From a virus (lineage: Duplodnaviria > Heunggongvirae > Uroviricota > Caudoviricetes): a DNA stretch of 4,531 nucleotides. Location of the stretch: the IMG/VR virus record IMGVR_UViG_2706794682_000007. One strand, 5' to 3'. The notes below the pieces were generated by a model, which was not told the origin of the DNA, did no database searches, and saw nothing but the letters and a program-made list of their open reading frames with translations. Both the position numbers and the translations under genes were made by a program. Positions 1 through 4,531 of the stretch are shown here, in pieces (position 1 is the stretch's first letter; every line of letters starts with the position of its first letter).

Positions 1-11
1 AGTATTAAGAC

Positions 12-31
12 TATCACTTATTTAAGTGATA
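12..31. repeat. 20-bp perfect palindrome tatcacttat|ttaagtgata with TATCAC half-sites
   Basis: Read directly: positions 12-21 are the reverse complement of 22-31. TATCAC is the consensus half-site of lambda cI/Cro operators (from memory), but this palindrome is 20 bp rather than 17 bp and lies in a region that may be coding (frame 1 is open from position 1 to a TAA at 160-162). Confidence 0.5.
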
Positions 32-183
32 CTGGTTGTCTGGAGATTCAGGGGGCCAGTCTACGGACATTTTCTGCCTGTGGACCAGGAAAGTGCACGG
101 GTGCTTTCCACTCCCATGAAGCCCGGCAATCCGCGCAGATACAGTAATAAACGAACTGACAGCAGTAAGATGGAGCGTTTCTT

Positions 184-441
184 TTGAACAACCAGACAAT
201 GACTTTTACCCCTGAACAATTGCGTAAACACGCGCAGGAAATGCTGCGTCATGCTGAACAACTCGAAAAAACGGGCATAACAAAAGACGCTATCCGTAAA
301 GATATGGTACCCGCGCTTCGGGAACTGATGCAGGCGAAGCATCGCGCACAGAAAGCAGTAGATGAGCTGGTGGACTGTGTGGCAGAGCTGGAAACCAGAG
401 TCGGAAAGTTTGAAAAACTGGTGCAGGAGGTGCTGCGCTGA
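184..441 (+). CDS. hypothetical phage nin-region protein (85 aa), helical and charged
   Basis: ORF with TTG start at 184 preceded by GGAG (174-177); alternative ATG at 199. Its TGA stop overlaps the rusA ATG in an ATGA junction at 438-443, indicating translational coupling. Position immediately upstream of rusA matches nin-region organisation of lambdoid phages. No family recognised. Confidence 0.55.
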   Translation: MNNQTMTFTPEQLRKHAQEMLRHAEQLEKTGITKDAIRKDMVPALRELMQAKHRAQKAVDELVDCVAELETRVGKFEKLVQEVLR

Positions 442-815
442 TGCGCCATGAGTTTATTTTACCTTATCCGCCGACGGTGAATACTTACTGGCGACGTCGT
501 GACAACACATATTTTGTATCAAAAGCCGGTGAGCGTTATCGCCGGGATGTGGCGCTTATTGTCCGTCAGCAGCGACTGAAATTAAGCCTGTCCGGAAGAC
601 TGGCGATAAAGATTATTGCAGAGCCACCGGATAAGCGCCGTCGTGACCTGGACAATATCCTGAAAGCACCACTGGATGCACTGACACATGCGGGAGTGTT
701 AATGGACGATGAGCAGTTTGATGAAATCAATATCGTTCGTGGTCAGCCAGTATCTGGTGGACGTCTGGGGGTGAAGATTTACCCCATAATGCATGAAGAG
801 CAGGTCAAAAAATGA
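441..815 (+). CDS. rusA: RusA-family Holliday junction resolvase (crossover junction endodeoxyribonuclease)
   Basis: 124-aa product is of RusA size and contains ...RRRDLDNILKAPLDALTHAGVLMDDEQ..., matching the catalytic acidic cluster of E. coli RusA (RRRDLDN...DAL...DD) as I recall it. AGGAGG at 425-430 lies 10 nt upstream of ATG 441. Stop overlaps the next gene's ATG at 812-815 (ATGA). Confidence 0.9.
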   Translation: MRHEFILPYPPTVNTYWRRRDNTYFVSKAGERYRRDVALIVRQQRLKLSLSGRLAIKIIAEPPDKRRRDLDNILKAPLDALTHAGVLMDDEQFDEINIVRGQPVSGGRLGVKIYPIMHEEQVKK

Positions 816-1526
816 AACTGGAAGATTTACCGAAATACTACTCCCCAAAATCCCCTTGCCTGACCGATGCATCGGCCTCAACGTCAAAAGATGCGCTGAG
901 TATCACTGATGTGATGGCCGCGCAGGGCATGACACAGAATCGGGCTGAGATGGGGTTTTCTGCGTTCCTGGGGAAAATGGGCATCAGTATGAATGACAGG
1001 GCGCGGGCAACAGAATTACTGGCAGATTATGCACTCAGTCGGTGCGATCGTGTGGCGGCGTTGAGAAAACTTCCGGCAGAAATAAAACCGGTAGTGATGC
1101 GCATTATGGCTTCGTACGCTTTTGAGGATTATGCCCGCAGCGCAGCGAGTAAAAAGCANNNNNNNNNNNNNNNNNNNNNNNNNNNNNNNNNNNNNNNNNN
1201 NNNNNNNNNNNNNNNNNNNNNNNNNNNNNNNNNNNNNNNNNNNNNNNNNNNNNNNNNNNNNNNNNNNNNNNNNNNNNNNNNNNNNNNNNNNNNNNNNNNN
1301 NNNNNNNNNNNNNNNNNNNNNNNNNNNNNNNNNNNNNNNNNNNNNNNNNNNNNNNNNNNNNNNNNNNNNNNNNNNNNNNNNNNNNNNNNNNNNNNNNNNN
1401 NNNNNNAACCAGATAACACGCGCGTCATGGGAAAAAACAGTTAAGAAATTTTATGATGCGCTGGTGACCCGGTTTGATATTGAAGAAGCATGGGCTGAGC
1501 GGCAGTTAAAAAAGGTAACTAGGTAA
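812..1526 (+). CDS. Q: lambda-type late antiterminator Q, interrupted by a 248-nt N-run
   Basis: N-terminal part (812-1158) MKLEDLPKYYSPKSPCLTD...DVMAAQGM... parallels lambda Q (MRLESVAKFHSPKSPMMSD...DVMAAMGM..., from memory). C-terminal part (1407-1526, ends TAA 1524-1526) ...WEKTVKKFYDALV...VTR parallels the lambda Q C-terminus (...WSRTVKPLYDALV...VTR). The two parts are in different frames relative to window coordinates, so the N-run is either not true length or hides a frameshift. A lambda-like PR'/qut lies immediately downstream. Confidence 0.8.
1159..1406. other. run of 248 N (assembly gap or masked sequence) inside the Q gene
   Basis: Directly visible run of n characters. All ORF-track residues shown as X derive from it. 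Confidence 0.99.
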
Positions 1527-1531
1527 CAAGG

Positions 1532-1571
1532 TTGATTTTTCCGGAATCTGTGGTAAATTCGTTATAACGAT
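1532..1571 (+). promoter_or_regulatory. PR'-like late promoter with qut-type pause element
   Basis: -35 ttgatt (1532-1537), 16-nt spacer, TGn-extended -10 taaatt (1554-1559), predicted start near 1566, then the -10-like element aacgat (1566-1571) followed by ggg. The stretch ggtaaatt...aacgatggg closely mirrors lambda PR' (GGTAAATTTGACTCAACGATGGG, from memory), where sigma70 re-binding to AACGAT causes the +16/+17 pause at which Q loads. Confidence 0.7.
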
Positions 1572-1607
1572 GGGCGTTTTATGCCTGACGTTAGAAGAGT
1601 TTCTACA

Positions 1608-1630
1608 ACCCGCCGCCGAGCGGGTTTTTT
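1608..1630 (+). terminator. intrinsic terminator, tR'-like
   Basis: Stem acccgc (1608-1613) / gcgggt (1620-1625) with loop cgccga, followed by a T-run through 1630. Lies about 45-65 nt downstream of the predicted PR' start, so would release a short 6S-like leader RNA in the absence of Q. Confidence 0.75.
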
Positions 1631-1750
1631 ATGACTGAAATCGCGTCAGTACAGTAAACGCGCTGGTGGCGGTGAATACCTGTCTTTCAGCTTGCTGGCT
1701 TTTTCGACAAGAGTTATTGGTGTGTCACGTTAACCGGAAAAGGAAAAGAC

Positions 1751-1948
1751 ATGCTAAAACAGCAGGATATGACAGAAACCGCCAGAGTGGTGTTTAATGA
1801 ATTAAGCGTTACCGAACCGGCGACAGTCGGGGAGATAGCGCAGAATACTTACCTTTCACGCGAACGCTGCCAGTTAATACTGACCCAGCTGGTTATGGCG
1901 GGTCTGGCAGACTATCAGTTCGGTTGTTACAGACGCCTTCCGCAGTGA
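1751..1948 (+). CDS. small helix-turn-helix protein (65 aa), first ORF of the Q-dependent late transcript
   Basis: ATG at 1751 with AAGGA SD about 8 nt upstream. Segment TVGEIAQNTYLSRERCQLILTQL has an HTH-like helix-turn-helix pattern (by eye). Codons checked by hand: both Ile codons are ATA, 2 of 5 Arg codons are AGA, plus one CTA. Confidence 0.55.
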   Translation: MLKQQDMTETARVVFNELSVTEPATVGEIAQNTYLSRERCQLILTQLVMAGLADYQFGCYRRLPQ

Positions 1949-1958
1949 AGGCTTTTTT
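1935..1958 (+). terminator. possible intrinsic terminator overlapping the stop codon of the 65-aa ORF
   Basis: Stem gccttc (1935-1940) / gaaggc (1947-1952), loop cgcagt, then tttttt (1953-1958). The TGA stop (1946-1948) lies in the hairpin. Only a 6-bp stem, so moderate strength. Confidence 0.45.
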
Positions 1959-1975
1959 ATTTGTGGTAAATGGGC

Positions 1976-2006
1976 GGCTGGTGGGTGTTAGGGGCACCCA
2001 CCAGCC
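1976..2006. repeat. GC-rich 12-bp perfect inverted repeat (stem-loop) with 7-nt loop
   Basis: ggctggtgggtg (1976-1987), loop ttagggg, cacccaccagcc (1995-2006); exact reverse complements. No T-run follows, so not a canonical terminator. Lies between the 65-aa ORF and the methyltransferase gene. Confidence 0.6.
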
Positions 2007-2047
2007 ATCTGCTCATGCGTTGGGTTCACAAGCAAACCTCAGGCCCA

Positions 2048-2066
2048 CTGCTTTGCGCAAAAGCAG
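2048..2066. promoter_or_regulatory. near-perfect palindrome ctgctttgcgcaaaagcag, candidate operator
   Basis: ctgcttt (2048-2054), gcgc centre, aaaagcag (2059-2066); 7-bp arms complementary with one extra A. Lies about 35 nt upstream of the methyltransferase ATG. Binding function is inferred only. Confidence 0.3.
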
Positions 2067-2098
2067 AATGAGCCTATCAGAGACAGGCTTAATGATCC

Positions 2099-3157
2099 AT
2101 GCTTAATACTGTAAAAATATCCAGTTGTGAGTTAATCAACGCCGACTGCCTGGAATTTATCCGGTCGTTACCCGAAAATTCTGTTGACCTGATAGTCACG
2201 GACCCGCCGTACTTTAAAGTGAAGCCTGAGGGCTGGGATAACCAGTGGAAGGGCGACGATGATTACCTGAAGTGGCTGGACCAGTGTCTGGCGCAGTTCT
2301 GGCGGGTGCTGAAACCTGCCGGAAGTCTTTACCTGTTCTGTGGTCATCGCCTGGCATCTGATATCGAAATCATGATGCGTGAACGCTTCAGTGTGCTGAA
2401 CCATATTATCTGGGCGAAGCCGTCCGGACGCTGGAACGGATGCAACAAGGAAAGCCTGCGGGCGTATTTCCCCGCCACAGAGCGCATTCTGTTCGCGGAA
2501 CATTATCAGGGGCCGTATCGTCCGAAAGATGCCGGGTATGCGGCGAAGGGCAGTGCACTGAAACAGCATGTGATGGCCCCGCTGATTTCTTACTTTCGTG
2601 ATGCGCGAGCTGCCCTGGGGATAACGGCAAAACAGATTGCAGATGCCACAGGAAAGAAAAACATGGTGTCGCACTGGTTCAGTGCCGGTCAGTGGCAGTT
2701 GCCGAATGAAAGCGATTATCTGAAATTACAGGCGCTGTTTGCCCGGGTGGCAGAAGAGAAGCATCGGCGTGGTGAACTGGAAAAGCTCCACCACCAGCTG
2801 GTGGATACGTATACCTCACTGAACCGGCAGTATGCGGAGCTGCTGAGTGAATATAAACATCTGCGGCGGTATTTTGGCGTGACGGTGCAGGTGCCGTATA
2901 CCGATGTGTGGACGCATAAACCGGTGCAGTTCTATCCCGGGAAACATCCGTGCGAAAAACCGGCAGAAATGCTGCAGCAGATAATCAGCGCTAGCAGTCG
3001 TCCGGGTGACCTGATTGCAGATTTTTTCATGGGGTTGGGTTCGACAGTGAAAGCGGCACTGGCGCTCGGGCGTCGTGCAATTGGCGTTGAGCTGGAGACT
3101 GAACGTTTTGAGCAGACGGTTCGGGAAGTACAGGATTTAGTCAGCCAGAACGGATGA
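2099..3157 (+). CDS. DNA amino-methyltransferase (N6-adenine or N4-cytosine, beta-class motif order), no restriction partner in window
   Basis: 352-aa ORF. Catalytic motif IV DPPY (LIVTDPPYF) near the N-terminus and AdoMet-binding motif I FxGxGS (ADFFMGLGSTV) near the C-terminus; this IV-then-I order is typical of beta-class amino-MTases. A roughly 100-aa insertion between the motifs is a likely target-recognition region. No restriction endonuclease ORF is adjacent. Confidence 0.88.
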   Translation: MLNTVKISSCELINADCLEFIRSLPENSVDLIVTDPPYFKVKPEGWDNQWKGDDDYLKWLDQCLAQFWRVLKPAGSLYLFCGHRLASDIEIMMRERFSVLNHIIWAKPSGRWNGCNKESLRAYFPATERILFAEHYQGPYRPKDAGYAAKGSALKQHVMAPLISYFRDARAALGITAKQIADATGKKNMVSHWFSAGQWQLPNESDYLKLQALFARVAEEKHRRGELEKLHHQLVDTYTSLNRQYAELLSEYKHLRRYFGVTVQVPYTDVWTHKPVQFYPGKHPCEKPAEMLQQIISASSRPGDLIADFFMGLGSTVKAALALGRRAIGVELETERFEQTVREVQDLVSQNG

Positions 3158-3197: not shown

Positions 3198-3273
3198 GGC
3201 CCTTTAGCTCAGTGGTGAGAGCGAGCGACTCATAATCGCCAGGTCGCTGGTTCAAATCCAGCAAGGGCCACCA
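3198..3273 (+). tRNA. ileZ: tRNA-Ile2 type (anticodon CAT, lysidine-dependent AUA reader); by anticodon alone cannot be told from tRNA-Met
   Basis: Hand-folded cloverleaf: acceptor ggccctt/aagggcc, D-stem gctc/gagc, anticodon loop ctCATaa (anticodon 3231-3233), T-arm gctgg-ttcaaat-ccagc, discriminator a, encoded CCA 3271-3273. Nearly identical to E. coli ileX as I remember it. Gene name follows the ileZ-argN-argO trio of Stx phages. Confidence 0.88.
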
Positions 3274-3280
3274 TCACATA

Positions 3281-3357
3281 CCGCCATTAGCTCATCAGGA
3301 AAGAGCGCCAGCCTTCGAAGCTGGCTGCGCGGGGTTCAAGTCCCCGATGGCGGTCCA
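3281..3357 (+). tRNA. argN: tRNA-Arg (anticodon TCG)
   Basis: Hand-folded: acceptor ccgccat/atggcgg (C1-G72), D-stem gctc/gagc, anticodon stem ccagc/gctgg with loop ctTCGaa (anticodon 3315-3317), T-arm cgggg-ttcaagt-ccccg, discriminator t, CCA 3355-3357. Confidence 0.85.
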
Positions 3358-3370
3358 TTATCTGCATCAT

Positions 3371-3447
3371 GCGTTGTTAGCTCAGCCGGACAGAGCAATT
3401 GCCTTCTAAGCAATCGGTCACTGGTTCGAATCCAGTACAACGCGCCA
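3371..3447 (+). tRNA. argO: tRNA-Arg (anticodon TCT, AGA/AGG reader, argU-like)
   Basis: Hand-folded: acceptor gcgttgt/acaacgc, D-stem gctc/gagc, anticodon stem attgc/gcaat with loop ctTCTaa (anticodon 3405-3407), T-arm actgg-ttcgaat-ccagt, discriminator g, CCA 3445-3447. Confidence 0.9.
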
Positions 3448-3461
3448 CACTTATTTTCCCT

Positions 3462-3487
3462 GGCTCGCTTTTGCGGGCCTTTTTTTT
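3462..3487 (+). terminator. strong intrinsic terminator after the tRNA trio
   Basis: Stem ggctcgc (3462-3468) / gcgggcc (3473-3479) with one G-U pair, loop tttt, followed by eight T (3480-3487). Confidence 0.8.
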
Positions 3488-3683
3488 AAATGTCTCACAA
3501 TTCAGACGGTTGACAGTTGTCTGTTTTGCGGGGAGTTTGTTAAAAGAAACTGGCATGGTGAATCCCCCTGTGCGGAGGGGCAATCAGCGAGTAGGTATAT
3601 GGGATAATCGCGGATTCAGGTGCTGGTACTGAATTCACCGGGAGGCACCCGGCACCATGCAATGGCACATAGCGCCACTCTCC

Positions 3684-3710
3684 AGCCCCTCTCCGGAGGG
3701 GCTGTTTATA
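3684..3710 (+). terminator. GC-rich hairpin with U-rich tail at the left edge of the AT-rich island; possible terminator
   Basis: agcccctc (3684-3691), loop tccg, gaggggct (3696-3703), then gtttatattgattttg on the + strand. On the - strand no U-run follows, so it is not a canonical terminator for the convergent gene. Confidence 0.45.
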
Positions 3711-3735
3711 TTGATTTTGTCAGATGTGAGTAAAC

Positions 3736-3769
3736 TCCTTATGGACTTTGTTGTTTTAGTCCATAAGGA
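3736..3769. repeat. 12-bp perfect inverted repeat overlapping the 3' end and stop codon of the reverse-strand ORF
   Basis: tccttatggact (3736-3747), 10-nt loop ttgttgtttt, agtccataagga (3758-3769). The minus-strand stop TAA (3739-3741) lies inside the left arm. Confidence 0.6.
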
Positions 3770-4074
3770 CATATTTGCAGAGTGCAACGGTTATTAAAGC
3801 ATTCATTCAATACGTTATCTGTATTTGTAGGGCATTCCTGGCTATTTTTGATTGAATTCCAGAATGTTTTATTGAATGGTACTACGTTGTAAATGGTTAC
3901 AGGTAGCACTTTGTTATTGAGCATGATGCCTGTGTGAGTCAGTGTAAATATACTTTCAGGAGGTAAGAAAGCATCCGATTGATACCAGATTATTAATTTT
4001 ATTTTACTCCATATGACTGAAAAAGATATTCCGCATGATGGCTGGATAACTGTATCAATCACAATCCACTTCAT
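3739..4074 (-). CDS. hypothetical protein (111 aa) in an AT-rich island, opposite in orientation to the phage late operon; candidate moron
   Basis: ATG is the complement of 4072-4074, with an AAGGA SD (complement of 4081-4085) 7 nt upstream. Hand translation reproduces the ORF-track protein. 6 of 13 Ile codons are ATA and 2 of 8 Leu are CTA, unlike typical E. coli usage. Several Cys near the C-terminus, no obvious signal peptide or TM segment, no family recognised. Possible sigma70 promoter on the minus strand: -35 tttaca (complement of 4136-4141) and -10 tatact (complement of 4115-4120), spacer only 15 nt, so weak evidence. Confidence 0.55.
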
Positions 4075-4319
4075 TTAGTTTCCTTGTTTATGCCTTGCTG
4101 GTGATGTTCTGAAAAGTATAAATGATATTTTTGAATGTAAACCATAGAGCAGAATTATTTTTCTGATGTTGTTTATTGTTTATTTAAATGCAGGGTGGTT
4201 TATATCTCGTCTTGTAGTTTATCCATGCATATCTGCTTGATAATCAGGTTTTTATTTAAGGTATGGTTTTGTGTTTTTTCTGTATTACATGTCAGGTATT
4301 TTAAAGAATTATTTTTCAG

Positions 4320-4508
4320 ATGGTGGAAAGAACCATGGCATTTAAACACTATGATGTTGTCAGGGCGGCGCCGCCGTCAGATCTTGCGGAAAAGCTGACA
4401 CATAAACTGAAAGAGGGCTGGCAGCCGTTTGGTAGTCCGGTGGCCATAACCCCTTATACCCTGAGGTGTACTGGCAATAGCGGACACTACCATTTGTTCT
4501 TTTTTTAA
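4320..4508 (+). CDS. small phage protein, DUF1737-like (assignment from memory), probably first gene leading into the lysis module
   Basis: ORF from ATG 4320 (alternative ATG 4335 preceded by a purine-rich stretch ggtggaaaga) to TAA 4506-4508. The motif KHYDVV...EGWQPFG resembles small DUF1737 proteins I recall from lambdoid prophages just upstream of holin genes. G+C content rises sharply at the ORF start. All three Arg codons are AGA/AGG and the single Ile codon is ATA. Confidence 0.55.
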   Translation: MVERTMAFKHYDVVRAAPPSDLAEKLTHKLKEGWQPFGSPVAITPYTLRCTGNSGHYHLFFF

Positions 4509-4531
4509 GCAGCCATCTGATGATATTTTTC

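What the first reader, a model, noticed from the sequence alone, without database searches (positions are those of the whole stretch)
3705..4330. AT-rich moron island with a reverse-strand gene of unknown function at the stx-equivalent position
About 0.6 kb between the tRNA trio and the DUF1737-like/lysis genes is visibly AT-rich (judged by eye, not computed) against GC-balanced phage flanks. It carries a single 111-aa ORF on the opposite strand with its own Shine-Dalgarno and possible own promoter. The left edge is marked by two hairpins (3684-3703 and 3736-3769). This is classic moron architecture, in the late-region slot where Stx-converting phages carry stxAB. Cargo here has typically been toxins, host-interaction factors or anti-phage/superinfection-exclusion genes. 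The Cys-containing protein matches no family I recognise, and its ATA-rich codon usage points to a foreign AT-rich donor.
Basis: partly seen in the sequence, partly recalled or inferred. Interest (0 to 1): 0.75.

Follow-up and report, generated by a model that had tools for sequence, protein, structure and literature searches.

The report
Prophage-borne iraL, an RpoS stabiliser
The AT-rich island is real, but its reverse-strand gene is iraL, an already characterised prophage gene whose small protein blocks the adaptor RssB and so protects the stress sigma factor RpoS from degradation; it is an ordinary copy of a known gene.

Summary
Window 3705-4330 has 32% GC against 51% elsewhere. It carries one 111-aa minus-strand ORF (3739-4074), and both hairpins are present.

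The claim of unknown function does not hold. The ORF passes NCBIfam's IraM model (162 bits, cut-off 121). It matches the solved IraM N-terminal domain (PDB 8twd, E=6e-31). It is 110/111 identical to CFT073 IraL, the RssB anti-adaptor that stabilises RpoS in log phase (Hryckowian 2014). The exact protein is the Shigella allele, and a S. sonnei iraL deletion lowers RpoS.

The published 5'-RACE start matches the window 30 of 30 bases, at 4107 (-). So the gene does have its own promoter.

The first hairpin is the terminator of the prophage sRNA STnc100 (3524-3713), not an island edge.

The slot is not the stx slot. In Stx2c phage 1717 the order is tRNAs, stx2cAB, STnc100, iraM-like (reverse strand), nanS-p.

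The same arrangement occurs in 1373 of 5426 complete E. coli genomes. The window itself is an IS2/IS600-truncated prophage remnant of Shigella type.

Verdict: a true moron, already known, of low interest. Two minor open points are an invariant C-terminal four-cysteine motif and a PhoP-box-like repeat upstream.

The parts
3739..4074 (-). iraL coding sequence (111 aa including the QQSP tail; stop codon TAA at 3739-3741). It encodes an RssB anti-adaptor of the IraM/IraL family.
   Evidence: ORF listed. NCBIfam NF007393 gives 162 bits against a cut-off of 121. PDB 8twd IraM residues 1-78 match at E=6e-31. The protein is 110/111 identical to CFT073 WP_000871291.1, which is IraL. dN/dS is 0.12-0.15 against homologues.
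4075..4107 (-). iraL 5'UTR (33 nt). The transcription start maps to 4107 and the Shine-Dalgarno AAGGA lies at 4085-4081.
   Evidence: The published 5'-RACE mRNA end is ACATCACCAGCAAGGCATAAACAAGGAAAC. It matches window 4078-4107 (-) with 0 mismatches.
4115..4141 (-). Probable sigma-70 core promoter of iraL. The -10 element TATACT is at 4120-4115, 7 nt upstream of the start. The -35-like element TTTACA is at 4141-4136, with a 15-bp spacer.
   Evidence: This is my own reading of the sequence upstream of the mapped start. It is identical to CFT073 across both hexamers. The paper states that sigma-70-like -10 and -35 elements exist, but its figure is not available as text. The simple scan does not list this promoter because it requires a 16-18 bp spacer.
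4170..4186 (+). PhoP-box-like direct repeat TGTTTA-N5-TATTTA, 63-79 bp upstream of the iraL start. Its function is untested.
   Evidence: One mismatch to KGTTTA-N5-KGTTTA, but 1.3 such sites at up to 2 mismatches are expected by chance in the window. A similar repeat, CGTTTA-N5-TGTTTA, sits at the aligned position in the phage 1717 cassette.
3736..3769 (.). 12-bp hairpin overlapping the last codons and the stop codon of iraL. The 5' arm covers the PYGL codons and the 3' arm covers S-P-stop. It may be the iraL 3'-end structure, but it is not a canonical terminator.
   Evidence: Folds at -17.5 kcal/mol on the minus strand, z -5.2. Only 3 U follow it, and the terminator scan does not list it. It is absent from K-12 iraM and from the phage 1717 homologue.
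3524..3713 (+). STnc100 (PasD-related) prophage sRNA gene, convergent with iraL. It forms the left flank of the island.
   Evidence: Rfam RF02076 gives 133.6 bits against a gathering score of 47, E=2.5e-30, over the full-length model. The same family lies next to the iraL/iraM-like gene in E. coli SW070919 and phage 1717, and is also found in phage JLK-2012, which lacks the island.
3683..3704 (+). Intrinsic terminator of STnc100 (GC-rich 9-bp stem followed by TTTATATT).
   Evidence: Terminator scan. Fold of -20.3 kcal/mol. It lies within the 3' stem of the Rfam model alignment.
4335..4464 (+). 5' part of the DUF1737 / nanS-p (SASA esterase) late gene, cut off by IS600. It forms the right flank of the island.
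   Evidence: Pfam DUF1737 at 57 bits. RefSeq homologues start at the ATG equivalent to 4335. Full-length versions are annotated as SASA family carbohydrate esterase. Homology to E. coli prophages ends at 4464.
3198..3447 (+). Prophage tRNA trio (CAU-anticodon tRNA annotated Ile in RefSeq, Arg-UCG, Arg-UCU), upstream context. The empty stx slot lies between it and STnc100.
   Evidence: ARAGORN. RefSeq annotation of the homologous loci. Phage 1717 carries stx2cAB between the tRNAs and STnc100.
4462..4531 (.). Terminus of IS600 (IS3 family), which truncates the DUF1737 gene.
   Evidence: 100% match over 70 nt to sequence annotated as IS3-like element IS600 family transposase. The same junction is present in 8 Shigella-type chromosomes.
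1..62 (.). Terminus of IS2, bounding the prophage remnant on the left.
   Evidence: The 62-nt sequence has 19,655 copies in E. coli genomes. It abuts an IS2 family transposase gene in O157 strain PV15-279.

Best explanation
The island is the iraL moron of a lambdoid prophage, here a Shigella-type prophage remnant truncated by IS2 and IS600.

Shown in the literature for the 99%-identical gene: iraL is transcribed leftward from its own sigma-70 promoter during ordinary exponential growth of the lysogen. The 111-aa IraL protein binds RssB, the adaptor that hands RpoS (sigma-S) to the ClpXP protease. RpoS half-life roughly doubles, and RpoS is already elevated in log phase.

Inferred here by homology: the N-terminal 78 residues form the PmrD-like beta-barrel seen in the IraM-RssB crystal structure. 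They keep 11 of the 14 RssB-contacting residues.

Shown here: the cassette (gene plus about 260 bp of AT-rich upstream DNA) sits between the STnc100 sRNA terminator and the nanS-p (DUF1737) late gene, on the strand opposite to late transcription. This slot is one module downstream of where Stx phages carry stxAB.

Inferred only: Q-antiterminated late transcription would run antisense through iraL after induction. The AT-rich DNA is a likely H-NS target, which would fit the reported 37 C up-regulation.
For: Family membership: NCBIfam IraM model, 162 bits against a cut-off of 121. PDB 8twd 'Anti-adapter protein IraM', E=6e-31 over residues 1-78. RefSeq annotates the same protein as anti-adapter protein IraM.

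Identity with IraL: the CFT073 potB-prophage gene WP_000871291.1 occupies the same context (tRNAs, then this gene on the reverse strand, then DUF1737, then holin). It is 110/111 identical in protein and 334/336 in DNA. The paper places iraL on the CFT073 potB island and reports 58.9% identity to K-12 IraM. I find 61%.

Function, from PMC4045071: deleting iraL halves the RpoS half-life in CFT073 and lowers RpoS in S. sonnei. IraL binds RssB. The native promoter fragment from -100 to +33 complements the deletion.

Allele: the exact window protein is the Shigella allele.

Promoter: the 5'-RACE start sequence is present 30/30 at 4078-4107 (-).

Interface: 11 of 14 IraM residues that contact RssB are identical. 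The changes are T13S, H63N and I64V.

Selection: dN/dS is 0.15 against K-12 iraM and 0.12 against the phage 1717 homologue.

Moron behaviour: 32% GC against 51%. The island is absent from the same slot in phage JLK-2012. A diverged homologous cassette, including the upstream region, is present in Stx2c phage 1717. The arrangement occurs in 1373 of 5426 complete E. coli genomes.

Expression reports in CFT073: iraL is up 1.6 log2 at 37 C against 23 C and is increased in a fur mutant.
Against: No experiment was done on this exact copy. It differs from CFT073 iraL by S74 in place of L74. It also differs at position -1 of the promoter and at one base between the Shine-Dalgarno and the ATG.

The prophage around it is decayed (IS2 and IS600 ends). 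Read-through or silencing could therefore differ from CFT073.

The AlphaFold model was uninformative (mean pLDDT 38.8). The fold is inferred from sequence identity to 8twd only.

My Pfam scan found no family, even at E up to 10. The collection's precomputed table lists PF11183 (PmrD) for the same protein. I did not resolve this discrepancy.

IraL was reported to bind only the RssB N-terminal domain in two-hybrid assays, unlike IraM. The IraM co-crystal may therefore not describe the IraL complex exactly.
Confidence: 0.93

Rival explanations
1. The gene is a functional equivalent of K-12 iraM. On this view it is a PhoP/PhoQ-induced (low Mg2+, acid) anti-adaptor rather than the constitutively log-phase-expressed IraL.
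For: It belongs to the same family. A PhoP-box-like repeat TGTTTA-N5-TATTTA lies 63-79 bp upstream of the start. A similar repeat is kept at the aligned position in the phage 1717 cassette. The IraL paper did not test PhoP or Mg2+.
Against: The protein is 61% identical to K-12 IraM and 99% identical to IraL. The upstream region does not align with that of K-12 iraM. The box match is no better than chance for the window as a whole: 1.3 are expected, and 139 of 200 shuffles have at least one. IraL is expressed without added stress.
Confidence: 0.12
2. The cargo is a toxin, superinfection-exclusion gene or anti-phage gene, as the first reader suggested for this late-region slot.
For: Morons in lambdoid late regions often encode such functions. 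PHROGs lists the family (phrog_4407) as 'unknown function'.
Against: There is no PADLOC hit. The protein shows full-length, high-identity membership of an experimentally characterised anti-adaptor family with a solved complex. It has no signal peptide or membrane segment evident in the sequence (my reading). Its neighbours are ordinary late genes.
Confidence: 0.03
3. The gene is a silent relic: an intact-looking ORF in a decaying prophage that is no longer expressed or selected.
For: The surrounding prophage is cut by IS2 and IS600, and the neighbouring DUF1737/nanS-p gene is truncated. AT-rich DNA is commonly silenced by H-NS (general knowledge).
Against: The ORF, Shine-Dalgarno, mapped start and core promoter are all intact. 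The exact protein is seen on at least 999 contigs, named from Shigella. The S. sonnei iraL deletion has a phenotype. dN/dS is well below 1. iraL is statistically enriched in Shigella.
Confidence: 0.04

Closest known systems
IraL (c1429, formerly ycgW) of uropathogenic E. coli CFT073 and of Shigella sonnei (Hryckowian et al., mBio 2014, PMC4045071)
   Same: 110/111 residues and 334/336 nt are identical. The mapped transcription start and core promoter are the same. The prophage context is the same (tRNA trio, STnc100, iraL on the reverse strand, DUF1737/nanS-p, holin). The exact protein is the Shigella allele.
   Different: S74 replaces L74. There are two single-base changes, at -1 and at +31 of the transcript. 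CFT073 has an extra DUF3927 segment between the tRNAs and STnc100. Here the prophage is an IS-bounded remnant.
IraM (YcgW/ElbA, b1160) of E. coli K-12, next to prophage e14; the complex with RssB is solved (PDB 8twd; Brugger et al. 2023)
   Same: The family and length class are the same, with 61% identity. 11 of 14 RssB-contact residues are identical. The C-terminal C-x10-C-x4-C-x4-CPYG pattern is invariant.
   Different: The upstream DNA is unrelated, and K-12 iraM is induced through PhoP/PhoQ. Its genomic site differs, beside e14. It has no QQSP tail and no stop-codon hairpin. IraM is reported to contact both RssB domains, whereas IraL is reported to contact the N-terminal domain only.
iraM-like gene of Stx2c/Stx2a phages (for example phage 1717 gp43 and phage 2851)
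   Same: It occupies the same slot and orientation between STnc100 and nanS-p. The protein is 74% identical. The roughly 250-bp upstream region aligns, including the -10 element.
   Different: It co-occurs with stx2c immediately upstream. It ends at GRK and uses the STnc100 terminator directly, with no second hairpin. To my knowledge it is uncharacterised experimentally.
PmrD (PhoP-to-PmrA connector protein)
   Same: The IraM core has the PmrD-like beta-barrel fold, and both proteins bind a response-regulator receiver domain. The collection's precomputed Pfam table assigns PF11183 (PmrD) to this protein.
   Different: The target differs (RssB, not PmrA). There was no detectable hit in my own Pfam scan. 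PmrD lacks the Cys-rich C-terminal tail (my knowledge; not tested here).

Membership tests
IraM/IraL/RssC anti-adaptor family | Sequence passes the curated family model | tested here: met
   NCBIfam NF007393 (PRK09919, anti-adapter protein IraM): 162 bits against a cut-off of 121, covering residues 1-110 of 111.
IraM/IraL/RssC anti-adaptor family | PmrD-like beta-barrel N-terminal domain (residues 1-78) | tested here: inconclusive
   Sequence match to the solved domain 8twd_A at E=6e-31, gap-free over residues 1-78. My own AlphaFold model was too poor to confirm the fold (pLDDT 38.8), although it does predict five beta-strands followed by one helix.
IraM/IraL/RssC anti-adaptor family | Conservation of the residues that contact RssB in the IraM-RssB crystal structure | tested here: met
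   I4, I6, W22, K26, I42, C14, F18, W30, I61, Y62 and P66 are identical. T13S, H63N and I64V are conservative changes, and CFT073 IraL shares them.
IraM/IraL/RssC anti-adaptor family | Binds RssB and stabilises RpoS against ClpXP | not testable with these tools
   Shown experimentally for the 99%-identical CFT073 protein and, by deletion, in S. sonnei. Not tested for this copy.
iraL (as distinct from iraM) | At least 95% nucleotide identity to CFT073 iraL over the whole coding region, which is the paper's own criterion | tested here: met
   334/336 nt identical, with one synonymous and one non-synonymous change. Against K-12 iraM the protein is only 61% identical.
iraL (as distinct from iraM) | iraL promoter and regulatory region at least 96% identical to CFT073, with the mapped transcription start | tested here: met
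   The 30-nt 5'-RACE sequence is matched exactly at 4078-4107 (-). The upstream 260 bp differs from CFT073 at only a few positions.
Phage moron | Base composition distinct from the flanking phage genes | tested here: met
   32.1% GC against 50.8%. This is the minimum for the whole window.
Phage moron | Present or absent between conserved flanks in related phages | tested here: met
   JLK-2012 has STnc100 followed directly by yjhS/DUF1737, without the island. Phage 1717, CFT073 and SW070919 carry the island.
Phage moron | Own promoter, expressed from the prophage in the lysogen | tested here: met
   The mapped start is present. Expression in uninduced log-phase cells is literature evidence for the near-identical locus.
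Phage moron | Own terminator | tested here: inconclusive
   A stable hairpin lies at the stop codon (-17.5 kcal/mol) but lacks a U-tract. The next structure is the STnc100 terminator read backwards, also without a U-tract.
stx-equivalent slot of Stx-converting phages | Same position as stxAB relative to the conserved late-region landmarks | tested here: not met
   In phage 1717, stx2cAB lies between the tRNAs and STnc100, and the iraM-like gene lies after STnc100. In the window the stx position corresponds to 3448-3523 and is empty.
STnc100 sRNA (Rfam RF02076), for hairpin 1 | Covariance-model score above the gathering threshold, over the full-length model | tested here: met
   133.6 bits against 47, model positions 1-206 of 206.

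The most novel reading that the evidence does not exclude
The C-terminal tail was removed for crystallography and is described in the literature as less conserved and flexible. It nonetheless carries an invariant CP-x(9-10)-C-x(4-5)-C-x4-CPYG pattern. In window numbering the cysteines are C81, C92, C97 and C102. The pattern holds in all 16 homologues collected, down to 53% identity. The tail could be a small metal-binding or redox-sensitive module that controls IraL/IraM stability or activity. If so, it would add a second sensory input to RpoS stabilisation. Separately, the PhoP-box-like repeat kept upstream of both the iraL cassette and the Stx2c-phage cassette could make iraL responsive to Mg2+.
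Probability: 0.2. Interest if true: 0.4.

Novelty: already known. Interest (0 to 1): 0.1.

Why it matters
The finding matters little as a discovery. iraL was named and characterised in 2014. Its family has a solved complex with RssB. RefSeq already annotates this gene as an anti-adapter protein.

The useful outcome is a correction. A candidate flagged as an unknown moron at the stx position is a known lysogenic-conversion gene that raises RpoS in growing E. coli and Shigella.

Three minor points have some practical value. First, phage resources still list the family as 'unknown function' (phrog_4407), so phage annotation pipelines miss it. Second, the late region has two adjacent cargo slots, stx before STnc100 and iraL/iraM-like after it. 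Some Stx2c phages therefore deliver a toxin and an RpoS stabiliser together. Third, iraL with its promoter survives intact in a heavily IS-eroded Shigella prophage, which is consistent with selection for the gene.

Tried and rejected
1. The Pfam scan of the ORF returned nothing, at E up to 0.01 and then at E up to 10. The collection's precomputed table nevertheless lists PF11183 (PmrD). I relied on NCBIfam and the PDB match instead.

2. AlphaFold2 on a 16-sequence alignment gave mean pLDDT 38.8 and pTM 0.31. This is too poor for a fold search, so I ran none.

3. I searched GTDB representative genomes for the exact DUF1737/IS600 junction and found 0 hits. I traced the origin through an exact-protein look-up instead. 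That led to Shigella-type chromosomes sharing both IS junctions.

4. The generic promoter scan did not recover the published iraL promoter, because the best hexamers are 15 bp apart. The two sites it did list, starting at 4182 and 4023, have no support.

5. The PhoP-box search found one 1-mismatch site, but this is not above chance for the window. I keep it only as a lead.

6. I considered that STnc100 might be the pR'-tR' late leader of this phage. I rejected that as the primary reading for two reasons. A promoter-plus-terminator module lies directly after the Q gene (about 1527-1633). In phage 1717, STnc100 lies downstream of stx2c rather than next to Q.

7. PADLOC gave no hit for the ORF, so the anti-phage reading was dropped.

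Full report

Yes. Window 3705-4330 is 32.1% GC, and the rest of the window is 50.8%. The lowest-GC 626-bp window of the whole sequence starts at 3703. No window of that size to the left of the island falls below 47.3%.

The island holds one substantial ORF of 111 aa, on the minus strand at 3739-4074. An AAGGA Shine-Dalgarno lies 6 nt before its ATG.

Both hairpins exist and are far more stable than shuffled sequence. The one at 3683-3704 folds at -20.3 kcal/mol (z -5.3). The one at 3736-3769 folds at -17.8 kcal/mol (z -5.1).

The codon remark also holds. Six of 13 Ile codons are ATA. GC3 is 0.33, against 0.60 in the neighbouring methylase gene.

**2. What is the gene?**

It is not an orphan.
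- NCBIfam's curated model for 'anti-adapter protein IraM' (NF007393) scores 162 bits against a cut-off of 121, over the full length.
- The protein matches the solved IraM N-terminal domain (PDB 8twd) at E=6e-31 without gaps.
- RefSeq annotates the identical locus in hundreds of E. coli genomes as IraM.

The closest characterised relative is IraL rather than K-12 IraM. The uropathogenic strain CFT073 carries a lambdoid prophage at potB. That prophage has the same gene order: tRNA trio, this gene on the reverse strand, DUF1737, holin. Its protein is 110/111 identical (L74 there, S74 here) and its DNA is 334/336 identical. K-12 IraM is 61% identical.

Hryckowian et al. (mBio 2014, PMC4045071) named exactly this CFT073 gene iraL and placed it on the potB island. 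They reported 58.9% identity to IraM. They showed the following:
- IraL binds RssB.
- Deleting iraL halves the RpoS half-life in log phase.
- iraL with its native promoter fragment (-100 to +33) complements the deletion.
- A Shigella sonnei iraL deletion also lowers RpoS in log phase.

The exact window protein is in the public collection, named from Shigella ('MULTISPECIES ... [Shigella]'), and is seen on at least 999 contigs.

**3. Promoter**

The paper's 5'-RACE mRNA end is ACATCACCAGCAAGGCATAAACAAGGAAAC. It is present with no mismatch at 4078-4107 on the minus strand. The start is therefore at 4107, and the 5'UTR is 33 nt.

Upstream I read TATACT at 4120-4115 and TTTACA at 4141-4136. Both are identical to CFT073.

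**4. How it works**

The IraM-RssB crystal structure (Brugger et al.) shows a PmrD-like beta-barrel. It bridges the RssB receiver domain, the linker and the pseudophosphatase domain through three residue clusters. Of the 14 named contact residues, 11 are identical in the window protein. The other three are conservative changes (T13S, H63N, I64V), and CFT073 IraL shares them.

The coding frame is under purifying selection. dN/dS is 0.15 against K-12 iraM and 0.12 against the Stx2c-phage homologue, although dS is near saturation.

The mechanism is therefore sequestration or remodelling of RssB, which spares RpoS from ClpXP. The biochemical steps are shown in the literature for near-identical proteins. 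For this copy they are inferred.

**5. Anatomy of the surroundings**

The first hairpin is not an island boundary marker. It is the terminator stem of the prophage sRNA STnc100. Rfam RF02076 covers 3524-3713 at 133.6 bits against a gathering score of 47, over the full-length model. A 2026 preprint relates this sRNA family to PasD and notes its association with esterase genes.

STnc100 and iraL are convergent.

The second hairpin overlaps the iraL stop codon. Its 5' arm is the conserved PYGL codons and its 3' arm encodes S-P-stop. This produces the IraL-specific QQSP tail, which K-12 IraM and the phage 1717 homologue both lack. No U-tract follows it, so its role as a terminator is unproven.

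On the right, the island ends at the DUF1737/nanS-p gene. The ATG equivalent to the start annotated in RefSeq homologues is at 4335.

**6. Is it a discrete insertion, and is it the stx slot?**

Phage JLK-2012 has STnc100 followed almost directly by yjhS/DUF1737. Homology with the window breaks near 3660 and resumes at the DUF1737 start. The island therefore behaves as a cassette.

In Stx2c phage 1717 the order is Q, tRNAs, stx2cAB, STnc100, an iraM-like gene on the reverse strand (74% identical), nanS-p, holin. Its roughly 250-bp upstream region aligns with the window's, including the -10 element.

So there are two adjacent cargo slots. stx lies before STnc100; in the window this position is the empty 3448-3523. 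iraL/iraM-like lies after STnc100.

The window-type arrangement, covering at least 80% of 3450-4531, is found in 1373 of 5426 complete E. coli genomes.

**7. Where the window comes from**

Bases 1-62 are an IS2 terminus. From 4462 onward the sequence is an IS600 terminus that truncates DUF1737.

No complete E. coli genome in the collection continues past 4464. Eight Shigella-type chromosomes, including S. sonnei 53G (HE616528), carry the same IS600 junction. They are 100% identical (99.9% in one) over window 1-1158, except one chromosome in which another element interrupts that stretch. They lack the central TrmB-like and methylase segment (1633-3157).

The window is therefore a mosaic relative of that Shigella prophage remnant. 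iraL and its promoter are intact inside an otherwise eroded prophage. This fits the reported enrichment of iraL in Shigella.

**8. What remains open**

Regulation of iraL is only partly known. It is expressed in log phase without stress. It is up 1.6 log2 at 37 C against 23 C. It is increased in a fur mutant.

A PhoP-box-like repeat (TGTTTA-N5-TATTTA, 4170-4186) lies 63-79 bp upstream of the start. It has a counterpart at the aligned position in phage 1717. Statistically it is no better than chance for the window.

The C-terminal 30 residues were removed for crystallography and are called less conserved. Yet they contain four cysteines and an ICPYG motif that are invariant across all 16 homologues I collected. 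The structural paper does not mention cysteines at all.

These are leads, not findings.

**9. Verdict**

The moron reading is right, but the claim of unknown function is wrong. The gene is a near-identical copy of iraL, a characterised prophage-borne RssB anti-adaptor. Novelty is 'already known' and interest is low.

Noticed in passing
window 3981-3742 (-), protein residues 79-107: The C-terminal tail has four invariant cysteines (C81, C92, C97, C102) and an invariant ICPYG motif in all 16 homologues, down to 53% identity. The solved structure omits this tail, and the paper calls it less conserved and flexible. It might be a metal or redox site.
   Followed up: partly
window 4170-4186 (+): A PhoP-box-like direct repeat, TGTTTA-N5-TATTTA, lies 63-79 bp upstream of the iraL start. 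A similar repeat, CGTTTA-N5-TGTTTA, sits at the aligned position in Stx2c phage 1717. The match is not above chance for the window.
   Followed up: partly
window 3198-3273 (+): ARAGORN calls the first tRNA Met (CAT), but RefSeq annotates the homologous gene as tRNA-Ile. That would be an ileZ-type tRNA reading AUA after lysidine modification (my knowledge). iraL uses ATA for 6 of its 13 Ile codons, so the prophage's own tRNA may serve its moron.
   Followed up: no
window 1-62 and 4462-4531: The window is bounded by an IS2 terminus on the left and an IS600 terminus on the right. Shigella sonnei chromosomes share both junctions. The prophage is an IS-eroded remnant, and its nanS-p/DUF1737 gene is cut after about 43 codons.
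   Followed up: yes
window 1633-3157 versus L006-L013: The S. sonnei loci that share both ends of the window lack the central segment (65-aa TrmB-like ORF plus the 352-aa N6/N4 DNA methylase). Their tRNA region is only about 87% identical, and they carry an extra DUF3927 gene. This is mosaic replacement inside a shared remnant.
   Followed up: partly
window 1160-1406: A run of N masks part of the Q antiterminator gene. Its 247-nt length does not match the 355 nt at the corresponding place in the S. sonnei loci.
   Followed up: no
window 1527-1633 (+): Directly after the Q gene lie a promoter-like TTGATT-N16-TAAATT and a GC-rich hairpin with a T-run. There are weak sub-threshold Rfam hits here (isrK 18.9 bits, Trp leader 21.8 bits). 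This is probably the phage's pR'-tR' late leader.
   Followed up: no
window 3462-3479 (+): A terminator-like hairpin (7 pairs followed by T8) lies immediately after the third tRNA. This is at the start of the empty interval where Stx phages carry stxAB.
   Followed up: no
window 3739-4074 (-): Databases disagree on this protein. PHROGs lists its family (phrog_4407, 240.8 bits, full length) as 'unknown function'. My Pfam-A scan finds nothing. The protein collection's precomputed table assigns PF11183 (PmrD). NCBIfam names it IraM.
   Followed up: partly
window 3736-3769: The stop-codon hairpin is an inverted repeat of the conserved PYGL codons. It creates the IraL-specific QQSP extension. It is absent from K-12 iraM and from the Stx2c-phage homologue, which abuts the STnc100 terminator directly.
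   Followed up: partly
window 1751-1948 (+): A 65-aa ORF has a weak TrmB-type helix-turn-helix match (18 bits, below the cut-off) and a strong match to phrog_331 (unknown function). It sits between the Q-proximal terminator and the methylase gene.
   Followed up: no
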